From: Thermodesulfobacteriota bacterium
Lineage (GTDB): Bacteria; Desulfobacterota; Desulfarculia; Adiutricales; JAGVGV01
Assembly: GCA_040755515.1 (NCBI GenBank)
Contig: JBFMAW010000023.1
Coordinates: forward strand, 39,383-103,382
Direction: 5' to 3'
DNA: 64,000 nt
Below the pieces are notes generated by a model that did not search any database, had not been told where the DNA came from, and was given only the letters and a program-made list of their open reading frames with translations. This document shows, piece after piece, positions 1-26,639 of this stretch; the first letter of the stretch is position 1; every line of letters starts with the position of its first letter. Position numbers and translations under genes: made by a program.

Positions 1-154
1 AGCGGTCAGGGATTTCTGCCTGAAAAGGCTGCCCGCCGCCTCGGTCCCGGATATCATTCATTTCACCGAGACCTTCCCCATGACCGCCACCGGCAAGATA
101 CAGAAGTTCAAGATGAGAGAGATAACGCTCGAGCTGCTGGCGGGAAAAGGGTGA
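1..154 (+). CDS. Acyl-CoA synthetase (AMP-forming) / long-chain fatty-acid-CoA ligase, C-terminal fragment (5' end lies outside the window)
   Basis: Frame 2 translates to ...DIIHFTETFPMTATGKIQKFKMREITLELLAGKG*. The ...P(K/M)TATGKIQ(K/R)... motif is the conserved C-terminal signature of adenylate-forming acyl-CoA synthetases. Stop codon at 152-154. Confidence 0.6.
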   Translation, partial: AVRDFCLKRLPAASVPDIIHFTETFPMTATGKIQKFKMREITLELLAGKG

Positions 155-174
155 TTGATTATATCATCGCTTGA

Positions 175-1719
175 TCAATCACCGTCCAGCACGAGAATGA
201 AACAGCCGCCGCCTCCACCGCCCGATCCGCCTCCGCCGTTGCCGCCGGATTGACCGAAAATAGCCGTGACGGACTTGGATTCGCTTAGCACCACGGTGCA
301 AGCGCCGGTGCCGGAGCAAGCGTCCCGCCATCCCAGGAAAGTGGAACCGGCGTCGGGTGTGGCGGTCAAAACGACGACGGTGTTCTGGTCAAAACCCTGA
401 TGACAGGTCGGGCCGCAGTCAATACCGGCCGGGTTGCTTAGAACGCGGCCGCCGCCCGGACCTATTTTATAAACCACCAGCCCTACGGCGATCCGCTCGA
501 AGGAGCCGATGTCGCTGATAGCCACGCCGTCGCCGTCTCCGTCCCGGGGCCTGGTGGTCCCTCTTTGGTCGGCCAGGCCGGGCTGGACCGGATCGGCAGC
601 GTCCACGGCCGGGCTGCCCGTCAGGAGGGCGTGGGTCTGGGTCGGGCCGCCGTTGTCGGCCAGCGGGCCGAGTCTGGGATCAGGATCCACCAGGTCGCCG
701 GCCGTCAAGGTCACAACGCAGGAAGTTAAGTCGCCAATCAGGTTGTACCCGGCGCTGGTAAGCGTGCCGGCGCAGTCCGGTCCGTCAGGGCCGGCGTTCC
801 CGGCCAGGAGAGAACCCCGGGCCGTGATGGCGCCCGCGGCCCGCAGGCCGCCACCCCTGGTCGTGGTCGTATTGCCGGATACGGTGCAATGGGCCAGGTT
901 CACGTTGCCGCCGGCGGCGTTGTAGAGGCCTCCTCCGAAATTGGACGAGTTGCCGCTGATCGTGGAGTTGCTCAAGGTTAAAACGGGCGAGCCGGCGCCG
1001 TTGTATAATCCTCCACCTTGGGTCGCGGCCGTATTGCTGTTGAAGGTGCTGTTCTCGACGGTGGCCGAGGCCCCCCAGTCGTTATGTACGCCGCCGCCGT
1101 AATCGGCCGAGTTCCGGCTGAAGGTGCAGTCGGTGACGGACAGGGTGGCGTTAAGGCTGTTGTATACGCCGCCACCGGTATTAGTGGTAGTGTTGTCCGC
1201 GACCAGGCCTTCCCTCAAGGTCACCGAGCCGCCGGGATTATAGATGCCGCCGCCGAAATTGGCCGCGTTGGCGACCAGGCGGAAGCGGCTCAAGGCGAGG
1301 CTTCCGCTCACTAGGTAGAACCCGCCGCCCAGATTGGCGTTGCCGTTGGTGACGGACAGATCAGTGCAGTTGACCGCGGCGTTGCCGGCGATCTGGAAGA
1401 CTCCCTGGGTTCCGCCGCCGCTGACGGTCAATTGGTCCGCGCCCAGGCCGTTGATGGTCAGGTTCTTATCGATGACCAGGACGCCGGCGATCAAGGTAAT
1501 GGTTTGACCGGAAAGGGAGGAGTCAAAAACGATGGTGTCTCCGGCCGCGGCGTTGGCCACGGTCCAACGCAGGCAGCCCGGATCGGCCACGTTGTCCGTG
1601 GCTTTGGTCACGGTCCAGGTGGCGGCCCAGGAGGTCGAAGCCAGCAGGAGGCAGAAAAGAGGCAAGGCCAAAAAGAAGGCGGCCTGGAGACGCCTGGTGG
1701 AGAGACCCGCAATGATCAT
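175..1719 (-). CDS. Secreted right-handed parallel beta-helix repeat protein (Pmp/pectate-lyase-like GGGxYN repeats) with N-terminal signal peptide (RR-containing n-region, possibly Tat) and Gly-rich C-terminus
   Basis: 514-aa ORF. N-terminus MIIAGLSTRRLQAAFFLALPLFCLLLASTSWA/ATW looks like a signal peptide with an AXA cleavage site. There are more than 12 degenerate repeats of ~22 aa, N(T/S)xxxGGG(L/V/I)YN. Its start lies 4 nt downstream of the PAAR-like gene stop, indicating translational coupling. Confidence 0.65.
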   Translation of the reverse strand: MIIAGLSTRRLQAAFFLALPLFCLLLASTSWAATWTVTKATDNVADPGCLRWTVANAAAGDTIVFDSSLSGQTITLIAGVLVIDKNLTINGLGADQLTVSGGGTQGVFQIAGNAAVNCTDLSVTNGNANLGGGFYLVSGSLALSRFRLVANAANFGGGIYNPGGSVTLREGLVADNTTTNTGGGVYNSLNATLSVTDCTFSRNSADYGGGVHNDWGASATVENSTFNSNTAATQGGGLYNGAGSPVLTLSNSTISGNSSNFGGGLYNAAGGNVNLAHCTVSGNTTTTRGGGLRAAGAITARGSLLAGNAGPDGPDCAGTLTSAGYNLIGDLTSCVVTLTAGDLVDPDPRLGPLADNGGPTQTHALLTGSPAVDAADPVQPGLADQRGTTRPRDGDGDGVAISDIGSFERIAVGLVVYKIGPGGGRVLSNPAGIDCGPTCHQGFDQNTVVVLTATPDAGSTFLGWRDACSGTGACTVVLSESKSVTAIFGQSGGNGGGGSGGGGGGCFILVLDGD

Positions 1720-1723
1720 GTCG

Positions 1724-2131
1724 TCAGCTCAGCACCAGAACCTGGACCTGACTGGGCGCCAGGGCCACGCCGGGACAGTTCATGCTCTGGCCGTTCTGGC
1801 CGGTCGTGCCGGTCATTCTGACGGCCGGCGCTCCTCCCACCAGTACGGTGGCGCTGCCGATCAGGAACCTGGTCGGCCCCATGATCATGCCCGAGACCAC
1901 GCCCATCTGCACGCCGGCCTCATCGCCGTTGCTCAGGGGTATCTGGGACATCAGATTCAGGGCCGGCATGCCACTGACCAGGACCGTGCGGGCCGCGGTC
2001 GAGGGGTTGGCCGTGGCGTTCGTGGATATATTCGGATAGGGGACGGGCACGGGCGCGCCCGCCGCGGCCGGTGTGTTGCACACGTCCGGGAAGCCCAGGT
2101 TCATCCCGCCGGCCATGCACGACATGAACAT
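1724..2131 (-). CDS. DUF4150-family PAAR-like protein (T6SS spike-sharpening/tip protein)
   Basis: 135 aa, MFMSCMAGGMNLGFPDVCNTPAAAGAPVPVPYPNISTNATA...MIMGPTRFLIGSATVLVGG. This matches the DUF4150/PAAR-like pattern (GxPDVCxTP...PxPYPN), from memory of the family. It lies at the end of the vgrG operon. Confidence 0.7.
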   Translation of the reverse strand: MFMSCMAGGMNLGFPDVCNTPAAAGAPVPVPYPNISTNATANPSTAARTVLVSGMPALNLMSQIPLSNGDEAGVQMGVVSGMIMGPTRFLIGSATVLVGGAPAVRMTGTTGQNGQSMNCPGVALAPSQVQVLVLS

Positions 2132-2173
2132 TAGCTGACCCTCCTTTCACATATCCGGATGAAATGGATTCTC

Positions 2174-2827
2174 TCAGCCCAGATGTATCTGCTCGGCCTC
2201 CACCTTAACATGTTTTTCAGACTTGATAATGGAATTCCTGGAGTGCATGATCATGGTTCCGTCCACCAGCCACCGCGTCGAGGCGGCTTGAACCTCTTCA
2301 TGCTCGGCCACATAGCGATACGAAGCAGTCAGCCGTTGAACGACTCTTCGGAAGACCAGGTCCAGCGACTGTCCGATCATCTTGACCCGTTCCACTTGAC
2401 CGTGCAGCATCCGGCCGATATAGGTGAATTTTTTAAACCGGGCCAGACCGAAGGCGGTATTGACCTCCAGAGACTCGGAGGCGGCGGTGAGTTTGTTGGC
2501 GGAAGACAGGGTCAAATCCTGAGCGGCGGTGAGCCGCAGGTCGTCCCGACCCTCGATATGCACCGGCCCGTCAAAGATTATTCGTCGTTCCGAGTCCGGA
2601 CCGCTTGCCCGTTCCAGCACGGCCAGGATGTGGCTTTCACCGGTCGGCGCCAAAGCCAAAAGGACCCGATCCCCTTTTTCCGGTTTCAAGAGGCAACTGG
2701 CGGCCTGAACGGCTTTGATCCGGCCGAAACCATTCTCCACCATGAATAGCCGCTCCACCTCGGACAATACCTGTCCGTATTCCAAGACAGGATGGGAGTC
2801 GGTCATCTTATAAGCCAGGTTCTCCAT
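2174..2827 (-). CDS. DUF3540-like protein, a conserved partner of the DUF2169/pentapeptide/DUF4150 modules in vgrG islands (function unknown)
   Basis: 217-aa ORF tightly packed between the pentapeptide-repeat gene (24-nt gap) and the PAAR-like gene (42-nt gap). Size and position match the DUF3540 member of this recurring gene set. The family assignment is from memory of the gene neighbourhood and is not a direct motif match. Confidence 0.5.
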   Translation of the reverse strand: MENLAYKMTDSHPVLEYGQVLSEVERLFMVENGFGRIKAVQAASCLLKPEKGDRVLLALAPTGESHILAVLERASGPDSERRIIFDGPVHIEGRDDLRLTAAQDLTLSSANKLTAASESLEVNTAFGLARFKKFTYIGRMLHGQVERVKMIGQSLDLVFRRVVQRLTASYRYVAEHEEVQAASTRWLVDGTMIMHSRNSIIKSEKHVKVEAEQIHLG

Positions 2828-2851
2828 ATCGTCTCCTTTAATTGGCCAAGG

Positions 2852-3895
2852 TTACCAGTTTTCGGCTTCGGCCAGGTCCGGGTCAGTGCCCAGAGCAGCC
2901 TCGCGGTTGGCGCCCTCCCAATTGACGTGATCCATCAGGCTCCGGTGCAACTTGGTTCGATATAACCGGGCTGATCCGAAATCGGCCGCGGTCAGATCGG
3001 CGTGCGAGAAATCCGTATAGGCGCAGTTCGCGCCGATGAACAACGCTCCCTGGCAGAAGGCTCGCGTGAAGATGGCCTGCTCGATATCGGCCCTGGAGAA
3101 ATCAGCCCGCTTAAGCTTGCTTTTATCAAAGCAGGATTGATAAAGTCGGGCGTCCTTAAGGCTGGCCGCGGTCAGTGTGGTCTCGAGGAAGACGCTGCGT
3201 TTGCCTTTCACCGCGTCGAGCTTCGCCCCGGTCAGATCGGCGCCGGAAAAGTCGGATTGAGTGATATCCGCGCCGGTGAAGTCGCAGCCGGTGAAGTCCG
3301 CTCCACCGGCCTGGACCATGATGAATTCGGCGCCTCGGAAATCCTGTCCGGGCAGGCGACAATCCCGCAGAAAGGTCTTGTGCAATTTGCAGCCTTTGAG
3401 TCTGGCCCCGCTCAAGTCAGCTTCCATGAAGGTCGCCCTGGTCAGGTCCGCGCCGCTCAGATCCGCGTCAACCAAGGAAGCCTGGTAGAGTACCGTCCAG
3501 TTCAATACCGCTCCGGCCATGACGGCTTTATCCAGCCGGGCGTGATCCAATACGGCGCTGCTTAAGTCGGCCAGGGTAAGATCGGCGCCGGCCAGGTCCG
3601 CGCCGGTCAGGACCGCTTCGCGTAAAACCGCCTCTCGAAGAATGACCCCTTTGAGGTTCATCTTATGCCAGATGACTCCGGTCAGGTCCACTCCGGCCAT
3701 GATCGCCCCGAAGAGATCGCAGCCGGTAAAGCCGGTTCTTTGGATTTTGGCCACGGTGAAATTCACTTTTCTCAAGACCGTGTTCTCGAAGCGGCCGCCG
3801 GACAGGTCCGCGCCGGACAGATCGAGTCCGCTCAAGTCCACGTTCTCGATGGTGTCGTCGCGACGAATGGCGGCTAGGACTTCATCCCTGGTCAT
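2852..3895 (-). CDS. Pentapeptide-repeat protein
   Basis: 347 aa composed almost entirely of A(D/N)LxG / (S/T)GADL pentapeptide repeats (…VDLSGLDLSGADLSGGRFENTVLRKVNFT…ADLSGADLTRATFMEADLSGARL…). Start ATGA overlaps the stop of the upstream giant gene. Confidence 0.9.
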   Translation of the reverse strand: MTRDEVLAAIRRDDTIENVDLSGLDLSGADLSGGRFENTVLRKVNFTVAKIQRTGFTGCDLFGAIMAGVDLTGVIWHKMNLKGVILREAVLREAVLTGADLAGADLTLADLSSAVLDHARLDKAVMAGAVLNWTVLYQASLVDADLSGADLTRATFMEADLSGARLKGCKLHKTFLRDCRLPGQDFRGAEFIMVQAGGADFTGCDFTGADITQSDFSGADLTGAKLDAVKGKRSVFLETTLTAASLKDARLYQSCFDKSKLKRADFSRADIEQAIFTRAFCQGALFIGANCAYTDFSHADLTAADFGSARLYRTKLHRSLMDHVNWEGANREAALGTDPDLAEAENW

Positions 3896-6800
3896 GGCAG
3901 CAGGTCGGTCCGTTTATGCAGCTTGGTCATTTTAAGGTTGGCGCCATCGAGTTTGGTCCGGCCCAGCACGGACCGATGAAATTCAACGCCGTAAAGATTG
4001 GCGCCGGAAAAATCCGTGTCCACCAGTCTGGTCTTGCGCAGGGAACCATTTAAAAGGTTAATCCCCCGCAGGTCCCCCCCACTGAGGTCTGATTTGTTAA
4101 AGCTGGTCTGTTTGGCCTGGGTCCGGTTCAGGTTGGCTTGATGCAGGTCGCACTCCTCGATCAGGCTGCCTTCGAGGCGGGCGCCTCGGAAATCGGCCCG
4201 GTGCAACTCGGCCTGGCGCCAGCAGGCTTGGGACAAATCGGCGCCGGAGAAATCGGCGCCCGGCATCTCGGAGCCGCCGCCGATCCGGCTGTTGTGCATA
4301 TCCGTGTCGGTGAAATTGACTTCCCGGCCTTTCACCTGCCAGAAGAAGGCGGATCGGGCCTTCGCGCGGGAAAAGTCTGTCTTATCCAGTGCTGCTTCCG
4401 AAAAAAGCCCATGGCTTATATCCGCTCCGGCCAGGTTGGCCCCGGTAAGATCAGACGAGAGAAAGGAACCGCCATTGATTTTGGTATCATTCAGCCGGGC
4501 GTCTGACAGTTTCGCTCCTTCCAGAAGAGCACTTTCCATTTCGGCCCCTTGCAGATCGGCCGCGGTCAGGTCCGCGTTTTTCAGCAAGGCTTTCGTCATG
4601 GAAGAGCCGCTTAACACCGCTTTGGTAAACTTGGCTTGTTGAAAGAGCCCGCTGTCCAAACGGACGCCCTTTAACGAGGCCCCGGTGAAATCGGCCTCGT
4701 TGGCCACCGCCTCGGTCAGGTTGGCTCCATCGAGCTTTGAGCCGGCAAGGACGGTCTTTTCCAGAAAGGCTTCTTTTAAATCCAGGCCGGACAAGTCCAG
4801 GCCGGATAAATCGAGACCGGACAAGTTCTTGCCGGCCAGGCTTAGGCCTTGCTTATGGCGTTCGATCACATCTTCCCGGGTTAGAGGCTCCAGGTCATCC
4901 ACATCAATACCCGCTTTTTTAAGCTGTCCCAAGGCCCAGTCCGGGACGGGGGGCCGTGATTCGGCCTCGGCGATCCTGGCCATCCCGGCCTGGTATCTTT
5001 CCGCGGCCGCGCCGGTGACCCGCTTTATCTTGCCTTCGGCCTCGTCGAGTTTGGCCCAGACCTCGGGGTCTACCCGATCCACTTGTTTCAACTTTTCACG
5101 AGCCTGACCTAGGGAAGCGAGCATCGGCGCTGGGTCGAAAGGATTGTCGCCCAGGGCGACCTCTTTCCTGTCCAGGATCGTGTCCGGATTCAGGCCGGAT
5201 TTCCTGAGAGGTTCGTCGAATTTTTTCAGTTCCTGCTGGAAGTGGGCCTGCATCTCTTTTTTCATGGCCGCGATGTTTTCCAGCTCTGGTTTGAGGGCGG
5301 CGTCCACGCTGCCTCTTATTTTTTGATCCAGGGCTTGAACGTCAGGCAAGGGAAAATCTTGGGTGGCTTTTCTTTCTTGGCGCTCTTTTTCGATCAGGGC
5401 CAGTTCTTCCTCGATTTGGGTGGATAATTCCGGCGGGAGCGCGGCCAAAAGCCACGGTCTCAAGTCAAAACCGGTCCGGCGCGCCTCGAGCAGGTTCCGG
5501 CCCACGGGCAGGGGCAGGATTTTGGCTTGGGGATGAACATCGAGCCAGGCCGACAGTGTCTCGTCCACTTGTACTTCGGACCAGGCCGGCCCGGCGATCA
5601 GGAAAGCGCGGGCTGGCTCGATCAACTTGGCGGTTTCCTCGGCCGGCTTCCGGCTTGGATCCGGGGCCGCGATTATGGAGCAAAGGTCTGAAGCCTCTTG
5701 CCGGGCCAGCCAGGCCTCCAACTCGTCCGCCACCCGCAGGAAGACGTCAGGCCGTCGCGGGCTGATAAAGGTCAAAGCCAAGTCTTTCGATCCTTCGACC
5801 GGGAAATCAGTCCCGGCCTCGACCGCGTCACCGGTCCGGATAGTGATCCGGTCCAGGATGGCGCCGTCAAAATGAGGTATCACCAAGCCCGCCGGCAGGC
5901 GCTGATTCCTCGGCCGGCCCTGGTCGTCCCAGGCTTCTTTCAAACCCCAGGCGGATCGCGGTTCGGATAATTCCACCGGATTATAACCCAGCCAGGCCCG
6001 TCTGATGGTCTGGTGGGACAGGCCATGGGAGCGAAGTATTTTCATCAGTTCCTGGTTTTCCTGCAATCTCTGTCGGCAATCTTCCACGAAGCGGAAGCCT
6101 TGTTCCCGCCAGAGCTGATCCGGTTTAGGTTCGAAAAGCATGTCCGGTTCAAAACCCTCGGTCGGGATGCCTCTGGCTTCCAGTCGTTTCTTCTGCTCTT
6201 GGAAGGCCTTTTTAATTTCCTGTTGATGTTGAGTTATCTCGGCCTGGGCCTGGGCCACCTGGCCCGGAACTTCCTGAATGGCCGCGGCGGCCGCGGCCAG
6301 TTCACCCTGGGCCTCCTCGAGCATCGAGAGGTCTATTTTGATCAGGTGGCCGAATTCGGCCTTCAATTCAACGAGTCTCTTCCTGGCCTCGGCCAATCTA
6401 GTTGCCGCCTCGGTCATCTGCCCGGCGCCGCCGGCGGTCAGTTCCGATAAAGGCTGGGTGGAGGCCGGCGCCCGTCCCGCGGCCTCGGCCAAGGCCTCGT
6501 CGAGAAGTTGAGGTATTTTCTCCAGTTCGGCCCTGGCTGCCGCCAGCTCTTTTTCGGCCTGCTCCAAGGGGGTCATATCCACGGCCGGCACCGGCCATTT
6601 CATTCTTTCCTTTTCCAACTCGAGGTATTCTTCCAGGGTCCGGGGCGGGTCATGCAGTTTTTCCGTAAGCAGGAACAGCCGTCGGACGTCCGAGGCCTCG
6701 TCATCGGCCACTTCGGTCACGCCCCGGAAGATCAATACGCCCCGCCAGGCGTTGGGTAAGAGCCAGACCGTATCCAGGTTGGTCTTGACCTCCTTGAAGA

Positions 6801-7644
6801 CGGCGTCGGAAGGACTTCGCCTATCGTTCTTAAGTTGGGTGGCGAAACATTTCACCGCGACGCCGGGCAGGTGCGCCTTGATAAGGGGCCGGGCGTTGTT
6901 CATGTTTTCGATGAGCAGGGCTTCGTCGCCGCGCCAGAACCCGGTCAATCGTTGGTCCGGCGGCGCCGCGTTGAAAAAAGTATAGTCCATGTCCTCGGGG
7001 AAGTAAGGCCAGCGTTCCCTGAGCCATTTGGCGTCATATGTTCCCAGCTTACTCGATCTTTGCGGCCAGGTGATCTCGTACGGGCCGAAGCCGGCCGGAT
7101 TCGGCCGGTCCTCGGGCGAAGAGATCAAATGGCCGGGATCTTCCACGTTGGGCGCCAGGACCATAATTTCGCCCGAAGGCAGGCGGACGGGGTTGAGGCC
7201 CTTGCCCAGGGGGTTGCGCGGAAAGTCCGGACCGCCGAAAGCGTTGCGATAACCGACCTCGATGGCCTGAAACGGTTGGGGATCGCTCAGGGTCAGTAAA
7301 CCATTGGGACGGCGGCGCCAATGGCGACGGCCGAAGATGTAAAGACTCTTGTTGATGGGGCCGAGGCGCAAGGAAACTCTCAGGCCGGTAGTGGTCAGGC
7401 CGCCCGGAGCAAAGCACCGGCCCAGCATCAAAACTTCGCCTTGCGGCTTGGGCAGGCCTTGATCGAAGATGGTTTCCGCTCCCAGTTGGTCCTGAACGCA
7501 TGGCCATAGCTCCTGCTCCGGGAGCAGGTCGGCCGGCTCATTCAGATCGAAGAAGAGCAGGATCGAGACGGTCAGGTAGTATTTATCCGCCAGTCCGAAA
7601 TGATTGAGCAGCAGCGACTGGTCCTGTTCTTTTACCACTTCCAC
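3892..7644 (-). CDS. Giant DUF2169-domain protein fused to a coiled-coil linker and C-terminal pentapeptide-repeat domain
   Basis: 1250 aa. The N-terminal ~330 aa (…FPRNPLGKGLNPV…YDAKWLRERWPYFPEDMDYTFFNAAPPDQRL…) resembles DUF2169, a T6SS-associated adaptor-like domain. The middle ~550 aa is E/A/K/Q-rich with heptad character. The last ~340 aa are pentapeptide repeats (NLSGLDLSGLDLSGLDLKEAFL…ADLTAADLQGAEM…). Confidence 0.8.
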   Translation of the reverse strand: MEVVKEQDQSLLLNHFGLADKYYLTVSILLFFDLNEPADLLPEQELWPCVQDQLGAETIFDQGLPKPQGEVLMLGRCFAPGGLTTTGLRVSLRLGPINKSLYIFGRRHWRRRPNGLLTLSDPQPFQAIEVGYRNAFGGPDFPRNPLGKGLNPVRLPSGEIMVLAPNVEDPGHLISSPEDRPNPAGFGPYEITWPQRSSKLGTYDAKWLRERWPYFPEDMDYTFFNAAPPDQRLTGFWRGDEALLIENMNNARPLIKAHLPGVAVKCFATQLKNDRRSPSDAVFKEVKTNLDTVWLLPNAWRGVLIFRGVTEVADDEASDVRRLFLLTEKLHDPPRTLEEYLELEKERMKWPVPAVDMTPLEQAEKELAAARAELEKIPQLLDEALAEAAGRAPASTQPLSELTAGGAGQMTEAATRLAEARKRLVELKAEFGHLIKIDLSMLEEAQGELAAAAAAIQEVPGQVAQAQAEITQHQQEIKKAFQEQKKRLEARGIPTEGFEPDMLFEPKPDQLWREQGFRFVEDCRQRLQENQELMKILRSHGLSHQTIRRAWLGYNPVELSEPRSAWGLKEAWDDQGRPRNQRLPAGLVIPHFDGAILDRITIRTGDAVEAGTDFPVEGSKDLALTFISPRRPDVFLRVADELEAWLARQEASDLCSIIAAPDPSRKPAEETAKLIEPARAFLIAGPAWSEVQVDETLSAWLDVHPQAKILPLPVGRNLLEARRTGFDLRPWLLAALPPELSTQIEEELALIEKERQERKATQDFPLPDVQALDQKIRGSVDAALKPELENIAAMKKEMQAHFQQELKKFDEPLRKSGLNPDTILDRKEVALGDNPFDPAPMLASLGQAREKLKQVDRVDPEVWAKLDEAEGKIKRVTGAAAERYQAGMARIAEAESRPPVPDWALGQLKKAGIDVDDLEPLTREDVIERHKQGLSLAGKNLSGLDLSGLDLSGLDLKEAFLEKTVLAGSKLDGANLTEAVANEADFTGASLKGVRLDSGLFQQAKFTKAVLSGSSMTKALLKNADLTAADLQGAEMESALLEGAKLSDARLNDTKINGGSFLSSDLTGANLAGADISHGLFSEAALDKTDFSRAKARSAFFWQVKGREVNFTDTDMHNSRIGGGSEMPGADFSGADLSQACWRQAELHRADFRGARLEGSLIEECDLHQANLNRTQAKQTSFNKSDLSGGDLRGINLLNGSLRKTRLVDTDFSGANLYGVEFHRSVLGRTKLDGANLKMTKLHKRTDLLP

Positions 7645-7707
7645 GTTTATCGCCCTCCAAGGCCGATGCGCCGGGCCTCGTTGGTGATGGTGAAGAAGGC
7701 CTTGACT

Positions 7708-10700
7708 TCAACCAAGAATCACATTTCCCTTCAGGCAGGCTATTCTGAAATCAAACAAAGCCATATCGGTCTTATCGATGGCTGTCTTGTTTTGTCTGAT
7801 ATCGAGTTCGTTTTGATCAATCCTTTGATTGGTTCGCCGGATCGCGGTGGTGATTCTCCCGACGCGTGTGTTGAAGTCTTCCAGGCGTTGTTGGTGCATC
7901 CTCACGACCCGCTGGCCGAGTTCGATGTCTCTTTCAGCGGTATCCACACGTTCATTGGTAATTCTAATGTGTCTCCGAATGGCCCTGATTTGATTGGTGA
8001 AGACTCGAACATCTTGTTGGCCGGCCGTTATGGACTGTTCATGTGCCAAAACCATGTGGTTGGTGGCTTGCAAGTGGGTCTGCCAGGCGTTAATTCTATT
8101 GTCAATCGCCTCGATCTTTTTGTCCGAAGCGTTGAAGTGGCCGTTCTGCCACTCGTTGTGCCAGGCCAGGCTTCCTTCGAACTCGACGCCGATATGTATC
8201 TCCGAAGCCAGGCCGACCGTGAAGTAGCTCTCCCAGCCGCCGACGTACTGCATTTCTTCGCCATAGACCTTCCTGCTTTCCCCGGCTTCGATCTCCCAGT
8301 CGGCGAAAGAGCCGACCAGGCCCCGAAAGGCGCCCACGGTATGCATCTGAATTCCGTGTTTCCCTTCGCCGCCTTCGCCCTTCTCACCCTTTTCGCCCTT
8401 TTCGCCTTTTTCCCCTTTTTCGCCCGTAGCGCCGGTGGCGCCAGTGGGACCCCGGGCGCCCGTGGGTCCGATCGCGCCGGTGGCGCCTTTAGGTCCCAGA
8501 GGTCCGACCGGGCCGGTGGCGCCCTTTTCACCCTTCAGATCAACATAGGTGTAGTCAGCCTCATCAGACGTCTTCACTCCCAGGCGGGTGCCGTCCCATT
8601 TGTATTCAAAGTTGGCCCCGCGGTCGCCCTGATCGCCTTTGGCGCCCGGCGCCCCCGGCACTCCAGGCAGTCCTTGTTGACCGCGGTCGCCCTGGTCGCC
8701 CTTTGCTCCGGTTGCTCCACTGGCGCCGGTCGCACCGGTCGCACCGGTGGCGCCGGCGGGACCGGTTGGTCCAGCCGGTCCTGGAATACCCGGAGGGCCT
8801 GGCGGCCCTGGTTCGCCTTTTGCTCCGGCCTCGCCCTTTTCACCCGTGGGTCCGGTAGGCCCGGTCGCGCCGGCGGGGCCGGTTGGTCCTACGGCTCCGG
8901 CCGGTCCGGGAATACCCGGGGGTCCGATCGGTCCGGCTTCACCTTTTGCTCCGGCCTCGCCCTTTTCACCCGCGGGTCCGGTAGGCCCGGTCGCGCCGGC
9001 GGGGCCGGTTGGTCCTACGGCTCCGGCCGGTCCGGGAATGCCCGGAGGTCCGATCGGTCCGGCTTCGCCCTTGTCACCGCGGTCGCCCTTTTCGCCCAAC
9101 GGTCCTTGCGGTCCCGCTGGCCCCTGAGGTCCCGGAGGCCCCTGCGGCCCGGGGGGGCCTGGAGGTCCGGGCGGGCCGGGTTCTCCGTCTCCGGTGGGTG
9201 GGTCGTTGGGCGCGCCGATGCGAATCCAGGAGTTGGCCGTGGGCGACAACAGCACGATCCTTTGGCTGCCAGCCGCGTCTTCGATGTGTATCTTGTTCTG
9301 TCCGGCCGTGGTGATGATGTTCATGGTGCTGTTGTCGGCCGTGACCGGGCTGGGATACTCGGGGTTCGGCACCGCTCCGGTGATGATCGGCCGATCCGGG
9401 TCTCCCTCGATGAAGGTCAAAAGCACTTCCGTTCCTTTGTGCAGGGGGAAGTGCAGGCCGTGGTCCGAACCTCCGTAAGGTTGCATCATGCGCAGATAAG
9501 TCGAGGCCTTGCCGTCCTTCCGGCCCGAAAGATCAAAAGGCAGGACCACCTTATACCGGCCGTATTCGTCCAGTTCGGCGTATTCGCCGCTCGCGGCCGC
9601 GTCCACCACGGCGTTGATCACTCCGTAGAACCTTGGTTTTTCGCTGGCCAATTCGGCCCGGAACTGGGCCTGGGCCGGAATGGCCACAAACGAGTTGCGG
9701 TAATAGAGCTGCTGTTCTCGCTCGCTCAGAGCGCGCTTGAGGCCGTCTATCATGTACGCCGTCTGAGTGCCTTCATGCTCCATCTTGATGGTCAGGTACT
9801 TCTGATTGAAGTTTTCCTGATAATGATCCTGTAGCTCGAAGGTGTATCCTGGTCGGAGATAGGGCACCGCGCTCTCGCCGTAAAATTCGCGTTCCCGGCA
9901 GAGATAGGCTTCGGCTCGAACCTGGGCCAGCGTGTCGCCCTCTTCCGGGGTGAGGAAATGGTCGCCGTAAACGTAGATCTGCCCTCGGCCTTCAGGCAGG
10001 ATTCCGGCCCGGCCGGTCAGTTCGAGAGATGGCGTCAGGTAATTGTAATCCTTGAGCAGAACCTCTTGGGGCAGCATATGCTGGCGGCAGACATAAGATT
10101 GGATGACTTCCCGCATATGTCCGGCTTCCAAGCCGGAAGGGGGGGAATAGTAAAGAGTTCGACCTTGAGGCATGTCGGTGTGGGCGATGCCCGTATCGGT
10201 GATGATGACCTTTTCGGCGCCGGAGTCCTGTTCGAAGTAGTAATAGAGCCCTTGATGTTCGAGCCAGCGGGAGACGAAGTTCAGATGGCTTTCCCGGTAC
10301 TGGCTGACATATTCGAGTGATTGATAGGTCTTGGTGGTCTTTATCTCGAAATCCCGGGAAGTCAAGCCGCCGTCCTTGAGGACTTCGACTATTATGTCCG
10401 GCAGGTTCATCTTGAGGAATATCTGGTTATGGAAGGTCAGGGAGAGCCACCAGAGCCTGGGCGCCAGCACGGCCCGGTAAAAGACGTATTCGCCGAAGGC
10501 CTGCCGTTGTTCAAACCGGCTGAGAATGCCGTGAAAGGGCACGTCGCCTTCTTCGCGCCGGATGATGAAGGTGGCCGGCTTTTGTATTATCCGGCCCAGG
10601 TCCAGGTCCCGGCGGTCCGAGACCAGGTCAATCTCGAAGTGGTAGCACTGATTCAAGCCTTCGCTGCCTTTGAAGCTGACCACGTCAAAGGCGTCGGTCG

Positions 10701-10749
10701 GCAGGGCCTGGGAGACAAAGGCGAATTTTTCTTCGGTGATGAACCTCAT
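7708..10749 (-). CDS. vgrG: T6SS spike protein VgrG with long collagen-like (Gly-X-Y) triple-helix extension, a globular C-terminal domain and a terminal coiled coil
   Basis: 1013 aa. Classic VgrG gp27/gp5 core (…[48 protein letters not shown]…). About 230 aa of uninterrupted GXY repeats follow ([25 protein letters not shown]…). Then a ~35-aa non-collagen spacer, a second GXY block ending in (GEK)5, a ~130-aa globular region, and a ~100-aa heptad-like C-terminus. Confidence 0.9.
8695..9072. repeat. Tandem 126-bp (42-aa, 14 GXY triplets) direct repeats inside the vgrG collagen-like region: two near-identical units at 8821-8946 and 8947-9072, plus a more diverged third copy upstream
   Basis: The string tgctccggcctcgcccttttcaccc… recurs at 8821 and 8947. 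The two units differ at only a handful of positions, and the encoded peptide …[32 protein letters not shown](A/T)[11 protein letters not shown]… is duplicated. A 9-bp (cccttttcg)n microsatellite encoding (GEK)5 lies at ~8385-8432. Confidence 0.8.
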
Positions 10750-10952
10750 GCTAAACCTCCCCCGCGGGTCAGGATTGAGGCGTTTGGGACGGAGAGCAGC
10801 CCCGGCCGAGGAGGGCCGGGCTGGCCGGAGTCAATAAGGCCGCCGCTTCGGAATGAGCGGTTTAAATCATGTAATCCTCCGGTACGGCGTCATTATAGGT
10901 GAATACCGGAAAAAATCAATCCGGAAGCAGAGGCCTGGTTCTCCGGTCAGGC

Positions 10953-23355: not shown

Positions 23356-25128
23356 ATGAACAAGAAAGTGTTTTTTATTGTATTGGCGCTTCTTATTATT
23401 TACCCCGCCGCCTCATGGGCCAGGGACTGGTATGTCCGGCCGGCCGGCGGCCAGTACGGAACACAAGACGGCACCAGCTATGACAACGCCTGGAACGGCC
23501 TGCACGCGATCAAATGGCTCGAGGGCGGCGTGCAGCCGGGCGACACCTTGTGGGTCTGCGGCCTGCATGTTTGGGATATGAAGACCAAGTCCTACATTGA
23601 CAAACAGGCGGTCATTCCAACGATCAACGGCGCGAGCGATACCCAGAGAATCATGATCCGGGGCGACTATTCTAACGATCCGGGCATTGTCTGGGGTGCG
23701 TACAGAATGAGCAGTTCTCCCTGGGTGGACGAGGGCGGAGGAGTGTGGAGTACCCTTCTTGCGGCCAATTCATTTCCTGAATGGTTCTTCCAGGATATCG
23801 GTAAACCAAAACCGGATTCCTATATTGTTCTGAACAGGCAAAAAAGCATTGACGGCGTCCGAGCCAATCCCGGGTCGTTTTACAGTGAAACCTATACCGC
23901 GGGTTCCAAGCTATACGTTAAAACTACTGACAGCCTGCCACCTCAAGGACGAATTTACGCTAACAGATACGGGTATAGATTCAACCTGGCGGATAATAAA
24001 TTTATAACTTTTTATAAGCTGAAAATGTTTAATTTCTTTCGTATATCCGGGATAAAACCCGTTTCCCCTCCCAGCAATATTACTTGGCAGGGCTGCACCC
24101 TGACTCATGGTGAACACAGTATCATATGGCTCTATGATGGCATGGATAATATGAAAGTCATTGACTGCGAACTGGCTTGGGCCGGAAACGGCATTTACAA
24201 CATCAGTAGTACTCTGGACAAAGCGGCCAGCAATTACCACTTCAAAGGTAATTATATCCATGACATGGGCGTCCGGGAAGCCACCCAGAACAACGATGGC
24301 CATTGCGTCGGGGCTCAAGGAGGGCGGAACGGAATCATAGAGGATAACGTTTGCGTAAACTGCGGTACCGGGCCATTGATTTACACTGGCGCCAGCCAGA
24401 TCGCCACCAACAACATTATCAGAAGGAACCTGGTCAAGGACCCGCATACGCTCGGCGGCGCCAATGGATACGGAATAGCTTTGCTGACCACCAACCTGAA
24501 TACTTCCGACAAGAGCGGCAATATAGTGGTCCAAAATATAGTCATCAACGCGAAGATAGCCTTCAGGTTTCATTGGGAACAGGTTCAACTCGTGGCTAAC
24601 AACGTGGCTTATAATTGCGAAATAGGCCTGGAGTCAAAGCGTAACTACAATGGTCTAGGGGCCAATGTCTATTTTGTCAATAACGTGTTTTTGAACACCA
24701 AGCAATATCACATCAACTGGGACACGGGCGCAAGTAATTTCGTTATATACGCCGACCGTAACATTTATTATCCGTCAACGGGTGCCATGTTCAGGTATAG
24801 GGGAAAGGACTATACTTGGGATGGTTGGCGCGCCTTGACCCGCCCGTCTTGCCTGTTTGACCCGAAGTCCTTCGCTTTGGACCCGAAATTTAAGAACATC
24901 ACGGGCAAGTTCACTGACGCTTTGGACTTCATGTTAAAAAGCGACTCGCCAGCCATTGGTACCGGACAGACGGTCCAGGTAATCACTAGTGATTTTGCCG
25001 GCGGGCCTATCCTGGGCACGCCGGATATCGGCGCTTTTCAGCATACCACGATTCCGCGGGGAGGTATTTCCGCCACTGCGCCAGGGTCGGGACCAATGCC
25101 TGCCCCAGGAGTGCCTGGCACTCCTTGA
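23356..25128 (+). CDS. Secreted right-handed beta-helix protein (possible polysaccharide lyase/depolymerase or EPS-modifying enzyme)
   Basis: Signal peptide MNKKVFFIVLALLIIYPAASWA. The region after the signal peptide (WYV…GG…G.S…) is typical of pectate-lyase-fold proteins, and Asn-rich beta-helix rungs are present (NNVAYNCE…NNVFLNTK). Confidence 0.6.
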   Translation: MNKKVFFIVLALLIIYPAASWARDWYVRPAGGQYGTQDGTSYDNAWNGLHAIKWLEGGVQPGDTLWVCGLHVWDMKTKSYIDKQAVIPTINGASDTQRIMIRGDYSNDPGIVWGAYRMSSSPWVDEGGGVWSTLLAANSFPEWFFQDIGKPKPDSYIVLNRQKSIDGVRANPGSFYSETYTAGSKLYVKTTDSLPPQGRIYANRYGYRFNLADNKFITFYKLKMFNFFRISGIKPVSPPSNITWQGCTLTHGEHSIIWLYDGMDNMKVIDCELAWAGNGIYNISSTLDKAASNYHFKGNYIHDMGVREATQNNDGHCVGAQGGRNGIIEDNVCVNCGTGPLIYTGASQIATNNIIRRNLVKDPHTLGGANGYGIALLTTNLNTSDKSGNIVVQNIVINAKIAFRFHWEQVQLVANNVAYNCEIGLESKRNYNGLGANVYFVNNVFLNTKQYHINWDTGASNFVIYADRNIYYPSTGAMFRYRGKDYTWDGWRALTRPSCLFDPKSFALDPKFKNITGKFTDALDFMLKSDSPAIGTGQTVQVITSDFAGGPILGTPDIGAFQHTTIPRGGISATAPGSGPMPAPGVPGTP

Positions 25129-25446
25129 GGCCTGAACCGTTGCCGAGAGGTGTAGTATAAAGCCGACGGCCGTGAGAGCGGTTCGGTACAGAGGAAGAGT
25201 TATTGGAATACGGAGTGGATCAGGCTGAATAAATTATTAATCTTTGTGCTTCTATATTGTGTAGGCATGGAATAGACTTAGTTCTTAAGAAATGGAAGCA
25301 GTTTCATCGGGGTCAAGGCCGAATCCTTAATCAACTTACGCCCCTTGACTCCGATTTTTATTTTGACCGGAAGCCACGAGGCCTCATGACCTTTATAGAG
25401 GCTAAATCAGCATAATTTCGCTCTTGAGGTAAATGGAGGTGGTGTT

Positions 25447-26589
25447 TTGGGGTATAATATTTTGGAAACCAAATCGTTTGTTACGGAAGAAAATGAAAGC
25501 GTGGTGACAATAAAATTTACTATTGATGCTAATGAGCATACTGTCTATTTTAAGAGTAAGCAGATCCGATTGCAGGATAGCGCGGAAGCTCTTCTGAATT
25601 TTTCAATTCTGCCAAATCTTTATGCTGGTAGTAATTTGAGATTGAATAGACCGATTAGCCGACGGTTATGTAATTCTACCAAGAAGATAATAGATATATT
25701 CTGTAAATGGAATCCAAAATATAACTACGTCGAAATTATTGATGCCGTCCCGGGTAGAACGGAAGATCAGGTTGAACGGAGAGTTGGAGTCTTTTTTTCC
25801 ACCGGGTTAGATTCGATATATACGCTGCTAAAGAATTTACATGAAATTACCGACATGATCTTCATTCATGGTTATGATTTGCGAATTAGCGAGATTGACT
25901 TGAGAAAAAAAACATCCGACATAATAGAACAGATTGGAAGAGAATTTAATAAAAATGTAATTCATGTAGAGACAAATTTAAAGGATGTGTTGGGACAATA
26001 TATCCCCTGGGCCAAGCTTTTACACGGAGCCGCGTTGACTACTATTGGACATATGATGTCACGGCATTTCAGGAAAATATTTATTTCGGCTAATCATACT
26101 TATGCTAATCTTCAACCAAATGGAGCTCATCCTATACTTGATCCCCTGTGGAGTACGGAATCTCTCGAGTTTGAGCATTTCGGCTGCGAGGCAGATAGAA
26201 TAGAGAAAGCTGCTTATATTGCTCAATTCGAAATTGCTTTAAATTCCCTGAGAGTTTGCTGGAAAAAAACAGGTGGGGCCTATAACTGCGGCGAATGCAA
26301 CAAGTGTCTTATTACAATGATTAACTTATATTTGGCAGGCGCATTAGATCGTTGTTCCACATTTGATAAGAAGATAAGTTATTGGAAAATGAAAATGGAA
26401 CTGAACTTCATGCCAGAGGGTTGGCGAGCATACGTAAGGCAAAACATAGATCATCTGGAAAAAACCAATAGTGATAAGAAAATGTTAAAAGCCTTAAGAA
26501 AGATATATAACAGAACTATTTGGGGGTGTTACTTTATAGCTGCTATCAAAAAGGCAGGCATGTTGTATGAAAAATACAAAAAAAGATAG
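25447..26589 (+). CDS. Uncharacterised enzyme-like protein, paralog A: PP-loop-like motif (…GVFFSTGLDS…) plus C-terminal Cys cluster (CWKKTGGAYNCGECNKC)
   Basis: 380 aa. The beta-strand-STGxDS-helix arrangement at ~aa 115 resembles the SGGxDS PP-loop of ATP pyrophosphatases (QueC/WbpG/LarE class) with Gly replaced by Thr. A CxxC-containing Cys cluster is present. TTG start with GGAGG 8 nt upstream. Confidence 0.55.
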   Translation: MGYNILETKSFVTEENESVVTIKFTIDANEHTVYFKSKQIRLQDSAEALLNFSILPNLYAGSNLRLNRPISRRLCNSTKKIIDIFCKWNPKYNYVEIIDAVPGRTEDQVERRVGVFFSTGLDSIYTLLKNLHEITDMIFIHGYDLRISEIDLRKKTSDIIEQIGREFNKNVIHVETNLKDVLGQYIPWAKLLHGAALTTIGHMMSRHFRKIFISANHTYANLQPNGAHPILDPLWSTESLEFEHFGCEADRIEKAAYIAQFEIALNSLRVCWKKTGGAYNCGECNKCLITMINLYLAGALDRCSTFDKKISYWKMKMELNFMPEGWRAYVRQNIDHLEKTNSDKKMLKALRKIYNRTIWGCYFIAAIKKAGMLYEKYKKR

Positions 26590-26639
26590 GAAAAGAAATA
26601 AAATTATACAAAAAAATCTATATATATGGATAGGCAAGA

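What the first reader, a model, noticed from the sequence alone, without database searches (positions are those of the whole stretch)
175..2131. PAAR-like gene translationally coupled to a Sec/Tat-signal-bearing beta-helix protein: conflicting export signals for a putative T6SS cargo
Cargo effectors usually follow PAAR or VgrG genes and lack signal peptides. Here the 514-aa beta-helix protein starts 4 nt after the DUF4150 stop, yet opens with a textbook signal peptide containing an RR pair (STRRLQAAFF…SWA/AT). Alternatives from the sequence are a Tat/Sec-exported surface beta-helix adhesin that is merely co-transcribed, a cargo whose hydrophobic N-terminus is really a TM or prePAAR-like element, or a periplasm-acting immunity or anchoring factor.
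Basis: partly seen in the sequence, partly recalled or inferred. Interest (0 to 1): 0.55.

Follow-up and report, generated by a model that had tools for sequence, protein, structure and literature searches.

The report
Secreted beta-helix gene beside T6SS spike
The gene after the PAAR-like spike-tip gene encodes an ordinary Sec-exported surface beta-helix protein from a very large family that shows no link to type VI secretion elsewhere, so the "conflicting export signals" most likely reflect gene neighbourhood, not a new kind of cargo.

Summary
On the minus strand, a 135-aa PAAR-like (DUF4150/PIPY) gene (1724-2131) is followed after 4 nt by a 514-aa ORF (175-1719) that opens with a classic signal peptide.

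The upstream genes form a textbook Class III Tvp module (also called TagAB/TagB/TagC/TagD): VgrG, DUF2169+pentapeptide, pentapeptide, DUF3540, PAAR-like.

The 514-aa protein is a choice-of-anchor Q / CSLREA-type right-handed beta-helix. It also carries an InlB-B-repeat beta-sandwich and a Gly-rich tail with a sub-threshold CFI-box sorting motif. The AF2 model has pLDDT 90.9, and the best solved fold match is RbtA, an Acinetobacter cell-surface protein listed as a T2SS substrate.

- The family has thousands of members across many phyla, and most complete ones carry the same signal peptide followed by the same mature N-terminus.
- 0 of 8 homologue neighbourhoods contain T6SS genes.
- 0 of 82 related PAAR-like loci contain a homologue of the beta-helix.
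- The RR pair is not a Tat motif, and there is no alternative start, lipobox or prePAAR motif.

Most likely this is a Sec-exported surface protein that is merely co-transcribed with an orphan vgrG island. It is not a T6SS cargo. Interest is low.

The parts
10892..10919 (-). Only sigma-70-like promoter match on the minus strand near the island (TTGATT-16-TATAAT), about 140 nt upstream of vgrG
   Evidence: this is a consensus match only, and the count of such sites is no higher than in shuffled sequence
7708..10749 (-). VgrG spike protein (1013 aa) with a collagen-like Gly-X-Y extension (res 522-713 and 740-790) and a C-terminal domain of about 220 aa
   Evidence: Pfam Phage_GPD E 3e-78 and Collagen E 1e-37, TIGR03361 E 1e-105; Gly-X-Y runs counted
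3892..7644 (-). TvpAB/TagAB: DUF2169 N-terminal domain fused to pentapeptide repeats (1250 aa)
   Evidence: Pfam DUF2169 E 3e-82 and Pentapeptide E 2e-49; classification from bioRxiv 10.64898/2026.02.23.707444 and PMC13584744
2852..3895 (-). TvpB/TagB: stand-alone pentapeptide-repeat protein (347 aa)
   Evidence: Pfam Pentapeptide E 4e-62
2174..2827 (-). TvpC/TagC: DUF3540 protein (217 aa)
   Evidence: Pfam DUF3540 E 6e-55
1724..2131 (-). PAAR-like DUF4150/PIPY spike-tip protein without a toxin domain (135 aa; PVPY motif), preceded by a strong SD (AAGGAGGG)
   Evidence: Pfam Tox-PAAR-like E 1.3e-35; sequence; alignment A2
1720..1723 (-). 4-nt spacer (CGAC) between the PAAR stop and the ATG of the beta-helix gene; no room for a promoter and no strong SD
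1624..1719 (-). Codons 1-32: Sec-type signal peptide, with predicted cleavage SWA|AT
   Evidence: heuristic; homologues have their own signal peptide ending directly before the same mature motif A(T/S)xTV; low-pLDDT detached helix 8-26 in the AF2 model
682..1623 (-). Residues 33 to about 346: CSLREA-like N-terminal cap (GCLRWTV...GDTIVF) and a right-handed parallel beta-helix with GGGxxN repeats
   Evidence: AF2 model with pLDDT above 94 over this stretch; best fold match RbtA 9cdu/9cdv E 6e-9; homologues carry Pfam Beta_helix or Chlam_PMP
496..681 (-). Residues 347-408: choice-of-anchor Q domain (DPRLGPLADNGGPT..HALL.GSPAVDA...DQRG..RP...DIGSFE)
   Evidence: NCBIfam NF041518 70.5 bits (cut-off 25), E 1e-19; invariant columns in A3
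253..405 (-). Residues 439-489: divergent InlB B-repeat (Flg_new_2) beta-sandwich; in the model this domain spans about 411-490
   Evidence: Pfam PF18998 E 1.8e-7; strands 411-490 in the AF2 model
178..240 (-). Residues 494-514: disordered Gly-rich linker and the tail GGGGGGCFILVLDGD, a possible truncated CFI-box sorting motif; stop codon at 175-177
   Evidence: NCBIfam NF041763 12.5 bits, below the cut-off of 15.9, E 0.09; pLDDT below 50; family member P0208 has a full CFI-box C-terminal domain; no remnant in the window
1..154 (+). 3' end of a convergent gene, probably an AMP-binding enzyme; its stop at 152-154 lies 20 nt from the stop of the beta-helix gene, so no gene (for example an immunity gene) follows the beta-helix gene
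   Evidence: AMP-binding_C E 0.005, partial, sub-threshold

Best explanation
The 514-aa product is a Sec-exported envelope or cell-surface protein of the very large choice-of-anchor Q / CSLREA beta-helix family. It is made as a precursor. The N-terminal signal peptide (residues 1-32) takes it through SecYEG and is cut after SWA. The mature protein is a right-handed beta-helix, followed by a choice-of-anchor Q cap, an InlB-B-repeat beta-sandwich, and a flexible Gly-rich tail. That tail may be the stump of a CFI-box sorting signal. The likely role is binding or adhesion at the surface; this is inferred from the fold and the family, not shown. The gene sits as the last cistron behind an orphan Class III Tvp spike module (VgrG, TvpAB, TvpB, TvpC, PAAR-like). 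It is probably transcribed with that module and translated by re-initiation after the PAAR stop. It is not loaded onto the spike and does not leave the cell through the T6SS. The apparent conflict of export signals therefore comes from gene order. In this kind of module the effector activity is more likely carried by the extended VgrG itself, as reported for Serratia VgrG1.
For: Shown:
- Domain content: NF041518 70.5 bits and Flg_new_2.
- An identical protein is named 'choice-of-anchor Q domain-containing protein' in an NCBI Thermodesulfobacteriota MAG.
- The AF2 model has pLDDT 90.9, with a detached N-terminal helix, a beta-helix, a beta-sandwich and a disordered tail.
- The best solved fold match is RbtA (E 6e-9). 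RbtA is described as a cell-surface protein and is listed among T2SS substrates.
- More than 6,200 homologues were found. Complete ones carry a signal peptide directly followed by the same mature N-terminus, and their C-terminal anchors vary.
- 8 of 8 homologue neighbourhoods lack T6SS genes.
- 0 of 82 PAAR-like loci contain a homologue of the beta-helix; at least 42 of those loci have DUF3540 directly upstream.
- The genes that follow PAAR in those loci are heterogeneous: another vgrG, tssG, tssJ, a transposase, a transglutaminase, HlyD, peptidase C26 and a 257-aa family.
- No gene follows the beta-helix gene that could encode an immunity protein.
- No toxin, MIX or other effector marker was found in Pfam or NCBIfam.
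- The module matches Class III Tvp. In Serratia the effector activity co-purifies with VgrG1 itself.

Inferred: co-transcription and translational coupling, from the 4-nt gap, the absence of an SD and the absence of a promoter-like site. The surface-binding function is also inferred.
Against: - The gene is packed unusually tightly into the operon: a 4-nt gap and no ribosome-binding site or promoter of its own. Such packing often goes with a functional link.
- A JBC 2025 model says synteny type C clusters encode the PIPY domain and the effector as separate proteins, so a separate cargo somewhere is expected.
- One signal-peptide-bearing protein, PseM, has been reported as T6SS-dependent.
- No homologue above 45% identity exists, so conservation of the adjacency in true orthologues could not be tested.
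- The signal peptide was judged without SignalP.
- Whether this genome has a T6SS core at all is unknown; none lies in the window.
Confidence: 0.75

Rival explanations
1. Functionally linked accessory. The beta-helix protein is exported by Sec but works with the T6SS island it is co-expressed with. It could be a surface adhesin that promotes the cell contact needed for firing, or an envelope-located protective or immunity-like factor against the VgrG-borne activity.
For: The gene is embedded in the operon with a 4-nt gap and no SD or promoter of its own. The immunity protein of the Serratia Class III system faces the periplasm. The beta-helix and B-repeat architecture is typical of binding proteins, and RbtA is a surface protein.
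Against: No homologue of the beta-helix occurs in 82 related PAAR-like loci, and none of 8 homologue neighbourhoods has T6SS genes. The family is abundant in lineages whose members carry other anchors. At 514 aa and with a cosmopolitan family, it is unlike known immunity proteins. The two closest PAAR relatives (68% identity, L007 and L008) have other genes at this position.
Confidence: 0.13
2. Non-canonical T6SS cargo. The protein is exported to the periplasm by Sec and then picked up by the spike or tube there (as proposed for PseM), or the signal-like segment is ignored and the protein is loaded onto the PAAR-like tip in the cytoplasm.
For: Its position directly after a toxin-less PAAR-like gene matches the usual place for cargo. 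The statement that synteny type C encodes PIPY and effector separately leaves room for a separate cargo. PseM is a precedent for a signal-peptide-bearing, T6SS-dependent toxin.
Against: All the linkage tests are negative. There is no toxin domain, no adjacent immunity gene, no adaptor (DUF1795, DUF2169-specific or DUF4123) dedicated to it, and no MIX, FIX or Rhs marker. The signal peptide and mature N-terminus are conserved family-wide, in organisms and contexts without T6SS genes. PseM itself was described as unique.
Confidence: 0.05
3. The N-terminal hydrophobic segment is not a cleaved Sec signal. It is instead a Tat signal, a lipoprotein signal, a signal anchor or TM helix, or a prePAAR-like element.
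For: An RR pair precedes the h-region. No dedicated predictor could be run.
Against: STRRLQA lacks the hydrophobic F-L positions of the Tat consensus. The h-region is strongly hydrophobic (KD 2.8), unlike Tat signals. No TAT model hit appeared. RR is present in only 22 of 84 signal-bearing homologues and a Tat-like motif in 1 of 84. There is no lipobox: F stands at -1 of the only Cys. The h-region is 17 residues with a central Pro and is followed by S-W-A|A, and homologues' signals end at the same aligned position. There is no AARxxDxxxH motif and no PAAR domain in this protein.
Confidence: 0.04
4. Gene remnant. The ORF is a 3'-truncated relic of a CFI-box-anchored surface protein, pushed against the PAAR gene and the convergent AMP-binding gene by deletions. 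It may no longer be properly sorted or functional. This reading is compatible with the best explanation and refines it.
For: The tail GGGGGGCFILVLDGD* matches only the first residues of the CFI-box motif (12.5 bits, cut-off 15.9). Family member P0208 has GCFIATAAYGS followed by about 75 further residues. Nothing of that domain remains in the window. There are only 20 nt to the convergent stop and 4 nt to the PAAR stop.
Against: The ORF is intact over 514 codons and gives a high-confidence fold. GC3 is host-like. The CFI match is sub-threshold and could be chance after a poly-Gly run. Many family members have no recognisable anchor.
Confidence: 0.3

Closest known systems
Choice-of-anchor Q / CSLREA-domain beta-helix repeat proteins (NCBIfam NF041518; 'predicted outer membrane repeat protein', Pmp-like repeats)
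   Same: Shares the signal peptide, the mature N-terminus A-T-x-T-V...GDTI.F, the GGGxxN beta-helix coils, the choice-of-anchor Q cap with the DQRG motif, and a frequent C-terminal InlB-B-repeat module. NCBI names the identical protein this way.
   Different: It is only 45% identical or less to any other member. It is shorter than most (514 aa against 600-900). It lacks a clear C-terminal anchor. It is the only member seen here next to T6SS genes.
Rhombotarget A (RbtA) of Acinetobacter baumannii (PDB 9CDU/9CDV)
   Same: It is the best solved-structure match to the AF2 model (Foldseek E 6e-9, TM 0.48-0.56). Both have an N-terminal signal peptide followed by a beta-helix domain. RbtA is described as a cell-surface protein and is listed among T2SS substrates. 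From my own knowledge, it carries a C-terminal GlyGly-CTERM sorting signal.
   Different: Identity is only 16-17% and no sequence-level match was found. The putative C-terminal motif differs (CFI-box-like, not GlyGly-CTERM). No rhombosortase or T2SS link was shown here.
Class III Tvp accessory system (Serratia TvpAB/TvpB/TvpC/Paar1), equivalent to Burkholderia T6SS-5 TagAB/TagB/TagC/TagD and to DUF2169 synteny type C
   Same: The five genes upstream of the beta-helix gene have exactly this domain set and order: VgrG with a long extension, DUF2169+PPR, PPR, DUF3540, and a toxin-less DUF4150/PIPY.
   Different: None of the described systems, and none of 82 related loci, has a signal-peptide beta-helix gene as the next cistron. 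Here the module is an orphan island with no T6SS core genes within 64 kb. The VgrG carries collagen-like repeats.
PseM of Pseudomonas aeruginosa (signal-peptide-bearing muramidase reported as T6SS-dependent)
   Same: It has an N-terminal Sec signal and a claimed link to T6SS secretion.
   Different: PseM is a small toxin (186 aa) with an adjacent immunity gene and demonstrated toxicity. The window protein has no toxin domain and no immunity gene, and its family shows no association with T6SS.

Membership tests
Choice-of-anchor Q / CSLREA beta-helix secreted proteins | Choice-of-anchor Q domain (NF041518) above the curated cut-off | tested here: met
   70.5 bits against a cut-off of 25, E 1e-19, residues 347-408
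Choice-of-anchor Q / CSLREA beta-helix secreted proteins | N-terminal signal peptide followed by the conserved mature N-terminus | tested here: met
   Heuristic positive (KD 2.8, 2 Arg, SWA|A). The mature ATWTVT...GDTIVF aligns with the homologues' A(T/S)xTV...GDTIxF directly after their own signals. SignalP was not available.
Choice-of-anchor Q / CSLREA beta-helix secreted proteins | Right-handed parallel beta-helix built of GGGxxN-type coils | tested here: met
   AF2 pLDDT 90.9 with regular three-strand coils over residues 61-340; beta-helix folds dominate the PDB matches
Choice-of-anchor Q / CSLREA beta-helix secreted proteins | A C-terminal sorting or anchor signal of some kind | tested here: inconclusive
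   CFI-box motif NF041763 scores 12.5 bits, below the cut-off of 15.9. The tail ends 8 residues after CFI, whereas P0208 has the full domain.
T6SS cargo effector | Conserved genetic linkage to vgrG, PAAR or adaptor genes | tested here: not met
   0 of 82 PAAR-like loci hold a homologue of the beta-helix; 0 of 8 homologue neighbourhoods hold T6SS genes
T6SS cargo effector | No Sec or Tat signal peptide (cytoplasmic loading) | tested here: not met
   A clear Sec-type signal is present and is conserved across the family
T6SS cargo effector | Toxin domain or effector marker, plus an adjacent immunity gene | tested here: not met
   No toxin, MIX, FIX or Rhs hit. The next gene is convergent and ends 20 nt away.
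T6SS cargo effector | T6SS-dependent secretion or delivery | not testable with these tools
   This needs a secretome or competition assay in a cultured host. The source is a MAG.
Tat substrate | Twin-arginine consensus S/T-R-R-x-F-L-K with a weakly hydrophobic h-region | tested here: not met
   The sequence is STRRLQA. The h-region KD is 2.8. No TAT-signal model hit at E<=10. A Tat-like motif occurs in 1 of 84 homologues. TatP was not available.
prePAAR / TM-anchored PAAR effector | N-terminal AARxxDxxxH motif, TM helices and a PAAR domain in the same polypeptide | tested here: not met
   The motif is absent from MIIAGLSTRRLQAAFF.... The 514-aa protein has no PAAR domain.
Class III Tvp / TagAB-TagD spike module (the context, not the beta-helix gene) | VgrG, DUF2169-PPR fusion, PPR protein, DUF3540, and toxin-less DUF4150 with a P(I/V)P(Y/F) motif, in one operon | tested here: met
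   All five domains were found, with E values of 1e-35 or better for the defining domain of each protein. The PVPY motif is at residues 29-32 of the PAAR-like protein.

The most novel reading that the evidence does not exclude
A Sec-exported choice-of-anchor Q beta-helix protein has been recruited into a Class III Tvp operon as a real partner of the spike. It would be either a periplasm-loaded cargo (the route proposed for PseM) or a co-expressed surface adhesin that sets up the cell contact for firing. That would be the first T6SS-linked member of this huge, uncharacterised family.
Probability: 0.06. Interest if true: 0.6.

Novelty: new member of a known kind. Interest (0 to 1): 0.15.

Why it matters
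As it stands, this mainly matters as a caution. A gene directly behind a PAAR or VgrG gene is not automatically cargo, even when it is packed into the operon. Automated "guilt by adjacency" effector calls in MAGs should check whether the linkage holds across the family.

If the minority reading were true, it would add a second, independent case of a signal-peptide-bearing protein working with a T6SS. It would also give a first functional handle on the choice-of-anchor Q family.

The surrounding island is a clean Thermodesulfobacteriota example of the recently defined Class III Tvp module, and its VgrG has an unusual collagen-like extension. That extension is arguably more interesting than the flagged gene.

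Tried and rejected
- Exact-sequence look-up of the 514-aa protein in the contig index gave nothing, so the wider contig could not be read.
- The genome scan with the PAAR-like protein gave only two loci. PAAR is followed there by tssJKLM or by another vgrG.
- Composition is uninformative. GC3 of the beta-helix gene is 0.79, within the host range of 0.68-0.88.
- Internal alternative start: the only in-frame TTG and GTG codons near the N-terminus have no SD, and homologues conserve the signal peptide, so this was rejected.
- Lipoprotein signal was rejected because there is no lipobox.
- A prePAAR element was rejected because the motif is absent.
- Tat was rejected.
- T6SS core genes elsewhere in the window: none found by tblastn against the T6SS loci or by Pfam scans of the large ORFs.
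- A second protein search with the beta-helix part alone, to find close orthologues, gave nothing above 45% identity.
- A search for a remnant of the CFI-box C-terminal domain in the window gave only chance hits.
- Literature on 'CFI-box': none.
- Literature linking beta-helix, signal peptide and vgrG: nothing relevant.
- A sequence-level search of the PDB with the family profile gave only Pmp-like repeats in a Tetrahymena protein and VexL. It did not find RbtA.
Full report
**1. Observation**

The minus strand of window 175-10749 carries six tightly packed ORFs.
- By Pfam and NCBIfam they are:
  - VgrG (7708-10749; Phage_GPD E 3e-78, TIGR03361 E 1e-105, plus Collagen repeats E 1e-37);
  - a DUF2169 protein fused to pentapeptide repeats (3892-7644; E 3e-82);
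  - a stand-alone pentapeptide-repeat protein (2852-3895);
  - DUF3540 (2174-2827; E 6e-55);
  - a 135-aa Tox-PAAR-like/DUF4150 protein (1724-2131; E 1.3e-35);
  - a 514-aa ORF (175-1719).
- The PAAR stop (TGA, 1724-1726) is separated from the ATG at 1717-1719 by the four bases CGAC.
- The PAAR gene is preceded by AAGGAGGG. The 514-aa ORF has only GAG at -11..-9.
- The only minus-strand sigma-70-like site in 11 kb lies upstream of vgrG (10919-10892), and no terminator-like site separates the genes.
- The coordinates, the spacing and the quoted N-terminus are therefore correct. Co-transcription and translational coupling are reasonable inferences that have not been demonstrated.

**2. What the 514-aa protein is**

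*Domains and fold*
- NCBIfam finds a choice-of-anchor Q domain (NF041518, 70.5 bits against a cut-off of 25, residues 347-408). Pfam finds a divergent InlB B-repeat (Flg_new_2, residues 439-489).
- The identical sequence is on record as 'choice-of-anchor Q domain-containing protein' from a Thermodesulfobacteriota MAG, on a 110-kb contig.
- An AlphaFold2 model built on 36 homologues is confident (pLDDT 90.9, pTM 0.84). It shows a detached, low-confidence N-terminal helix (8-26), a regular right-handed beta-helix (about 34-340), a cap, a beta-sandwich (411-490) and a disordered Gly-rich tail (494-514).
- The best solved fold match is Rhombotarget A of Acinetobacter baumannii (9cdu/9cdv, E 6e-9, TM 0.48-0.56). 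Polysaccharide lyases and phage tailspikes follow far behind.
- RbtA is described as a cell-surface protein whose beta-helix domain starts after a signal peptide, and it is listed among T2SS substrates.
- At the sequence level the PDB holds only remote repeat matches.

*The signal peptide*
- The N-terminus has the layout MIIAGLSTRR / LQAAFFLALPLFCLLLA / STSWA|ATWTV. It has two Arg, a 17-residue h-region with a central Pro (best 12-residue Kyte-Doolittle mean 2.8), and small residues at -3 and -1.
- Homologues have their own, unrelated signal peptides, and these end directly before the same mature motif. Examples are ...AQA|ATLTVTN...ASA|ATITVTN...VQA|ASFTVAN and ...AWG|ATYQVTN. This fixes both the start codon and the cleavage region by comparison.
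- By the heuristic, 84 of 120 and 71 of 116 listed homologues have a clear signal. Most of the rest are N-terminal fragments from short contigs.

*Other export signals*
- The RR pair does not make a Tat signal. STRRLQA lacks the hydrophobic positions of S/T-R-R-x-F-L-K, and the h-region is too hydrophobic.
- No TAT-signal model matched even at E<=10. RR occurs in 22 of 84 signal-bearing homologues and a Tat-like motif in 1 of 84.
- There is no lipobox (F stands at -1 of the only Cys), no prePAAR motif, and no in-frame alternative start with a ribosome-binding site.

*The C-terminus*
- Family members end in many different tags, such as FLPLxLR, TM+RRR and RFYRxxxP. This variety is what 'choice of anchor' refers to.
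- The window protein ends GGGGGGCFILVLDGD*. That tail matches the first 13 of 14 positions of NCBIfam's CFI-box sorting motif, but below threshold (12.5 bits against 15.9).
- One family member, P0208, has the complete ...KGCFIATAAYGS... motif followed by about 75 further residues. No trace of that domain is left in the window.
- The convergent gene, a probable AMP-binding enzyme, stops only 20 nt away.
- A 3' truncation is possible but unproven.

**3. Is it tied to the T6SS?**

Three independent tests say no.
- *Neighbourhoods of homologues.* Eight homologues on longer contigs were looked up (P0022, P0108, P0054, P0043, P0012, P0028, P0026, P0053). Their neighbours include peptidases, transporters, SpaA-like proteins and housekeeping genes, and never a T6SS gene.
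- *Related PAAR-like loci.*
  - 82 loci encode relatives of the PAAR-like protein at 42-68% identity: two from genomes and 80 from metagenomes. At least 42 of the 70 loci with enough upstream sequence have DUF3540 directly upstream.
  - A tblastn search of all 236 collected beta-helix homologues against these loci gave a single 69-aa B-repeat hit, 2.7 kb away in one locus, and no beta-helix hit.
  - The genes that follow PAAR in these loci are heterogeneous: another vgrG, tssG, tssJ-K-L-M, a Mutator transposase, a transglutaminase, HlyD, a peptidase C26, or a recurrent unannotated 257-aa family. The two closest relatives (L007 and L008, 68% identity) have that 257-aa gene, not a beta-helix.
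- *Effector hallmarks.* The protein has no toxin or effector-marker domain, and no gene follows it that could encode an immunity protein.

A second database search with the beta-helix part alone found nothing above 45% identity. The adjacency therefore cannot be followed in true orthologues. This is the main gap in the argument.

**4. Context**

- The five upstream genes match the recently defined Class III Tvp system: TvpAB = DUF2169+PPR, TvpB = PPR, TvpC = DUF3540, Paar1 = DUF4150 (bioRxiv 10.64898/2026.02.23.707444).
- The same set is known as TagAB/TagB/TagC/TagD in Burkholderia T6SS-5 (PMC13584744) and as DUF2169 synteny type C (PMC11883445).
- The PAAR-like protein has the P(I/V)P(Y/F) motif, here PVPY.
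- In Serratia, the effector activity of this pathway co-purified with VgrG1 itself. Class III VgrGs tend to have long extensions.
- The VgrG here has 81 Gly-X-Y triplets and a further C-terminal domain. A separate cargo is therefore not required to make sense of the island.
- Against this, PMC11883445 states that type C clusters encode the PIPY domain and the effector as separate proteins.
- No T6SS core gene lies in the 64-kb window, so this is an orphan vgrG island. Whether the genome has a T6SS core at all cannot be seen from here.

**5. Mechanism proposed**

- *Shown:* the family, the fold, the signal-peptide features, and the lack of conserved linkage to T6SS genes.
- *Inferred:*
  - The gene is transcribed from the vgrG promoter region as the last cistron and translated by re-initiation after the PAAR stop.
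  - The precursor crosses the inner membrane through Sec and is cleaved after Ala32.
  - The mature beta-helix and B-repeat protein ends up in the envelope or at the cell surface, where it binds something.
  - It never meets the cytoplasmic spike-loading pathway.
- I put 0.75 on this reading.
- Rivals (the truncated-remnant idea, put at about 0.3, is a refinement of the main reading, not an alternative):

| Rival reading | Confidence | Main arguments |
|---|---|---|
| A real functional partner, such as an adhesin or a protective factor | 0.13 | The tight operon packing speaks for it; the linkage data speak against it. |
| A non-Sec meaning of the N-terminus | 0.04 | An RR pair is present, but the Tat, lipobox, TM-anchor and prePAAR checks are all negative. 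|

**6. Verdict**

The gene is a new, divergent member of a known and very large family, in an unusual but probably fortuitous position. Interest is low (0.15).

Noticed in passing
window 7708-10749 (-), especially about 8380-9190: The VgrG carries 64+17 Gly-X-Y collagen-like triplets (res 522-713 and 740-790). They lie between the gp5-like region and a C-terminal domain of about 220 aa that has weak coiled-coil/SMC-like hits. A trimeric spike continued by a collagen triple helix is unusual. None of the few VgrGs visible in the 82 related loci has 12 or more such triplets. The 744-aa antisense ORF 7600-9834 (+) is probably an artefact of this repeat.
   Followed up: partly
L007:7840-8613, L008:1152-1955, L019:6427-7200, L011:6480-7256 and about 10 more loci: A conserved family of about 257 aa (N-terminus MKKVWITSLG...GHFW.DD..KMAW) lies directly downstream of the PAAR-like gene in 13-15 of 82 related loci, including the two closest relatives. 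It has no Pfam match and is absent from the window. It could be the real conserved partner (effector, immunity or accessory protein) of this PAAR clade.
   Followed up: partly
window 175-240 (-): The C-terminal tail GGGGGGCFILVLDGD* resembles the start of NCBIfam's CFI-box sorting motif (sub-threshold). Family member P0208 has the full CFI-box C-terminal domain. No literature on the CFI-box was found.
   Followed up: partly
window 23356-29413 (+), especially 26640-28247: Four consecutive ORFs (590, 380, 535 and 389 aa) have no Pfam match. They follow a Wzz / UDP-glucose dehydrogenase / epimerase cluster. One of them has GC 0.35 against 0.57 for the window, which suggests a horizontally acquired polysaccharide (O-antigen or EPS) cassette.
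   Followed up: no
window 48298-51869 (+): Two adjacent ORFs (847 and 343 aa, overlapping by 4 nt) have no Pfam match at E<=1e-5. They sit between a PCMT-like methyltransferase and the glycine-cleavage P-protein genes.
   Followed up: no
L007:6567-7808: In the closest long relative locus, a Mutator-family transposase sits between the PAAR-like gene and the 257-aa gene. This shows that the 3' junction of the module is a site of rearrangement.
   Followed up: no
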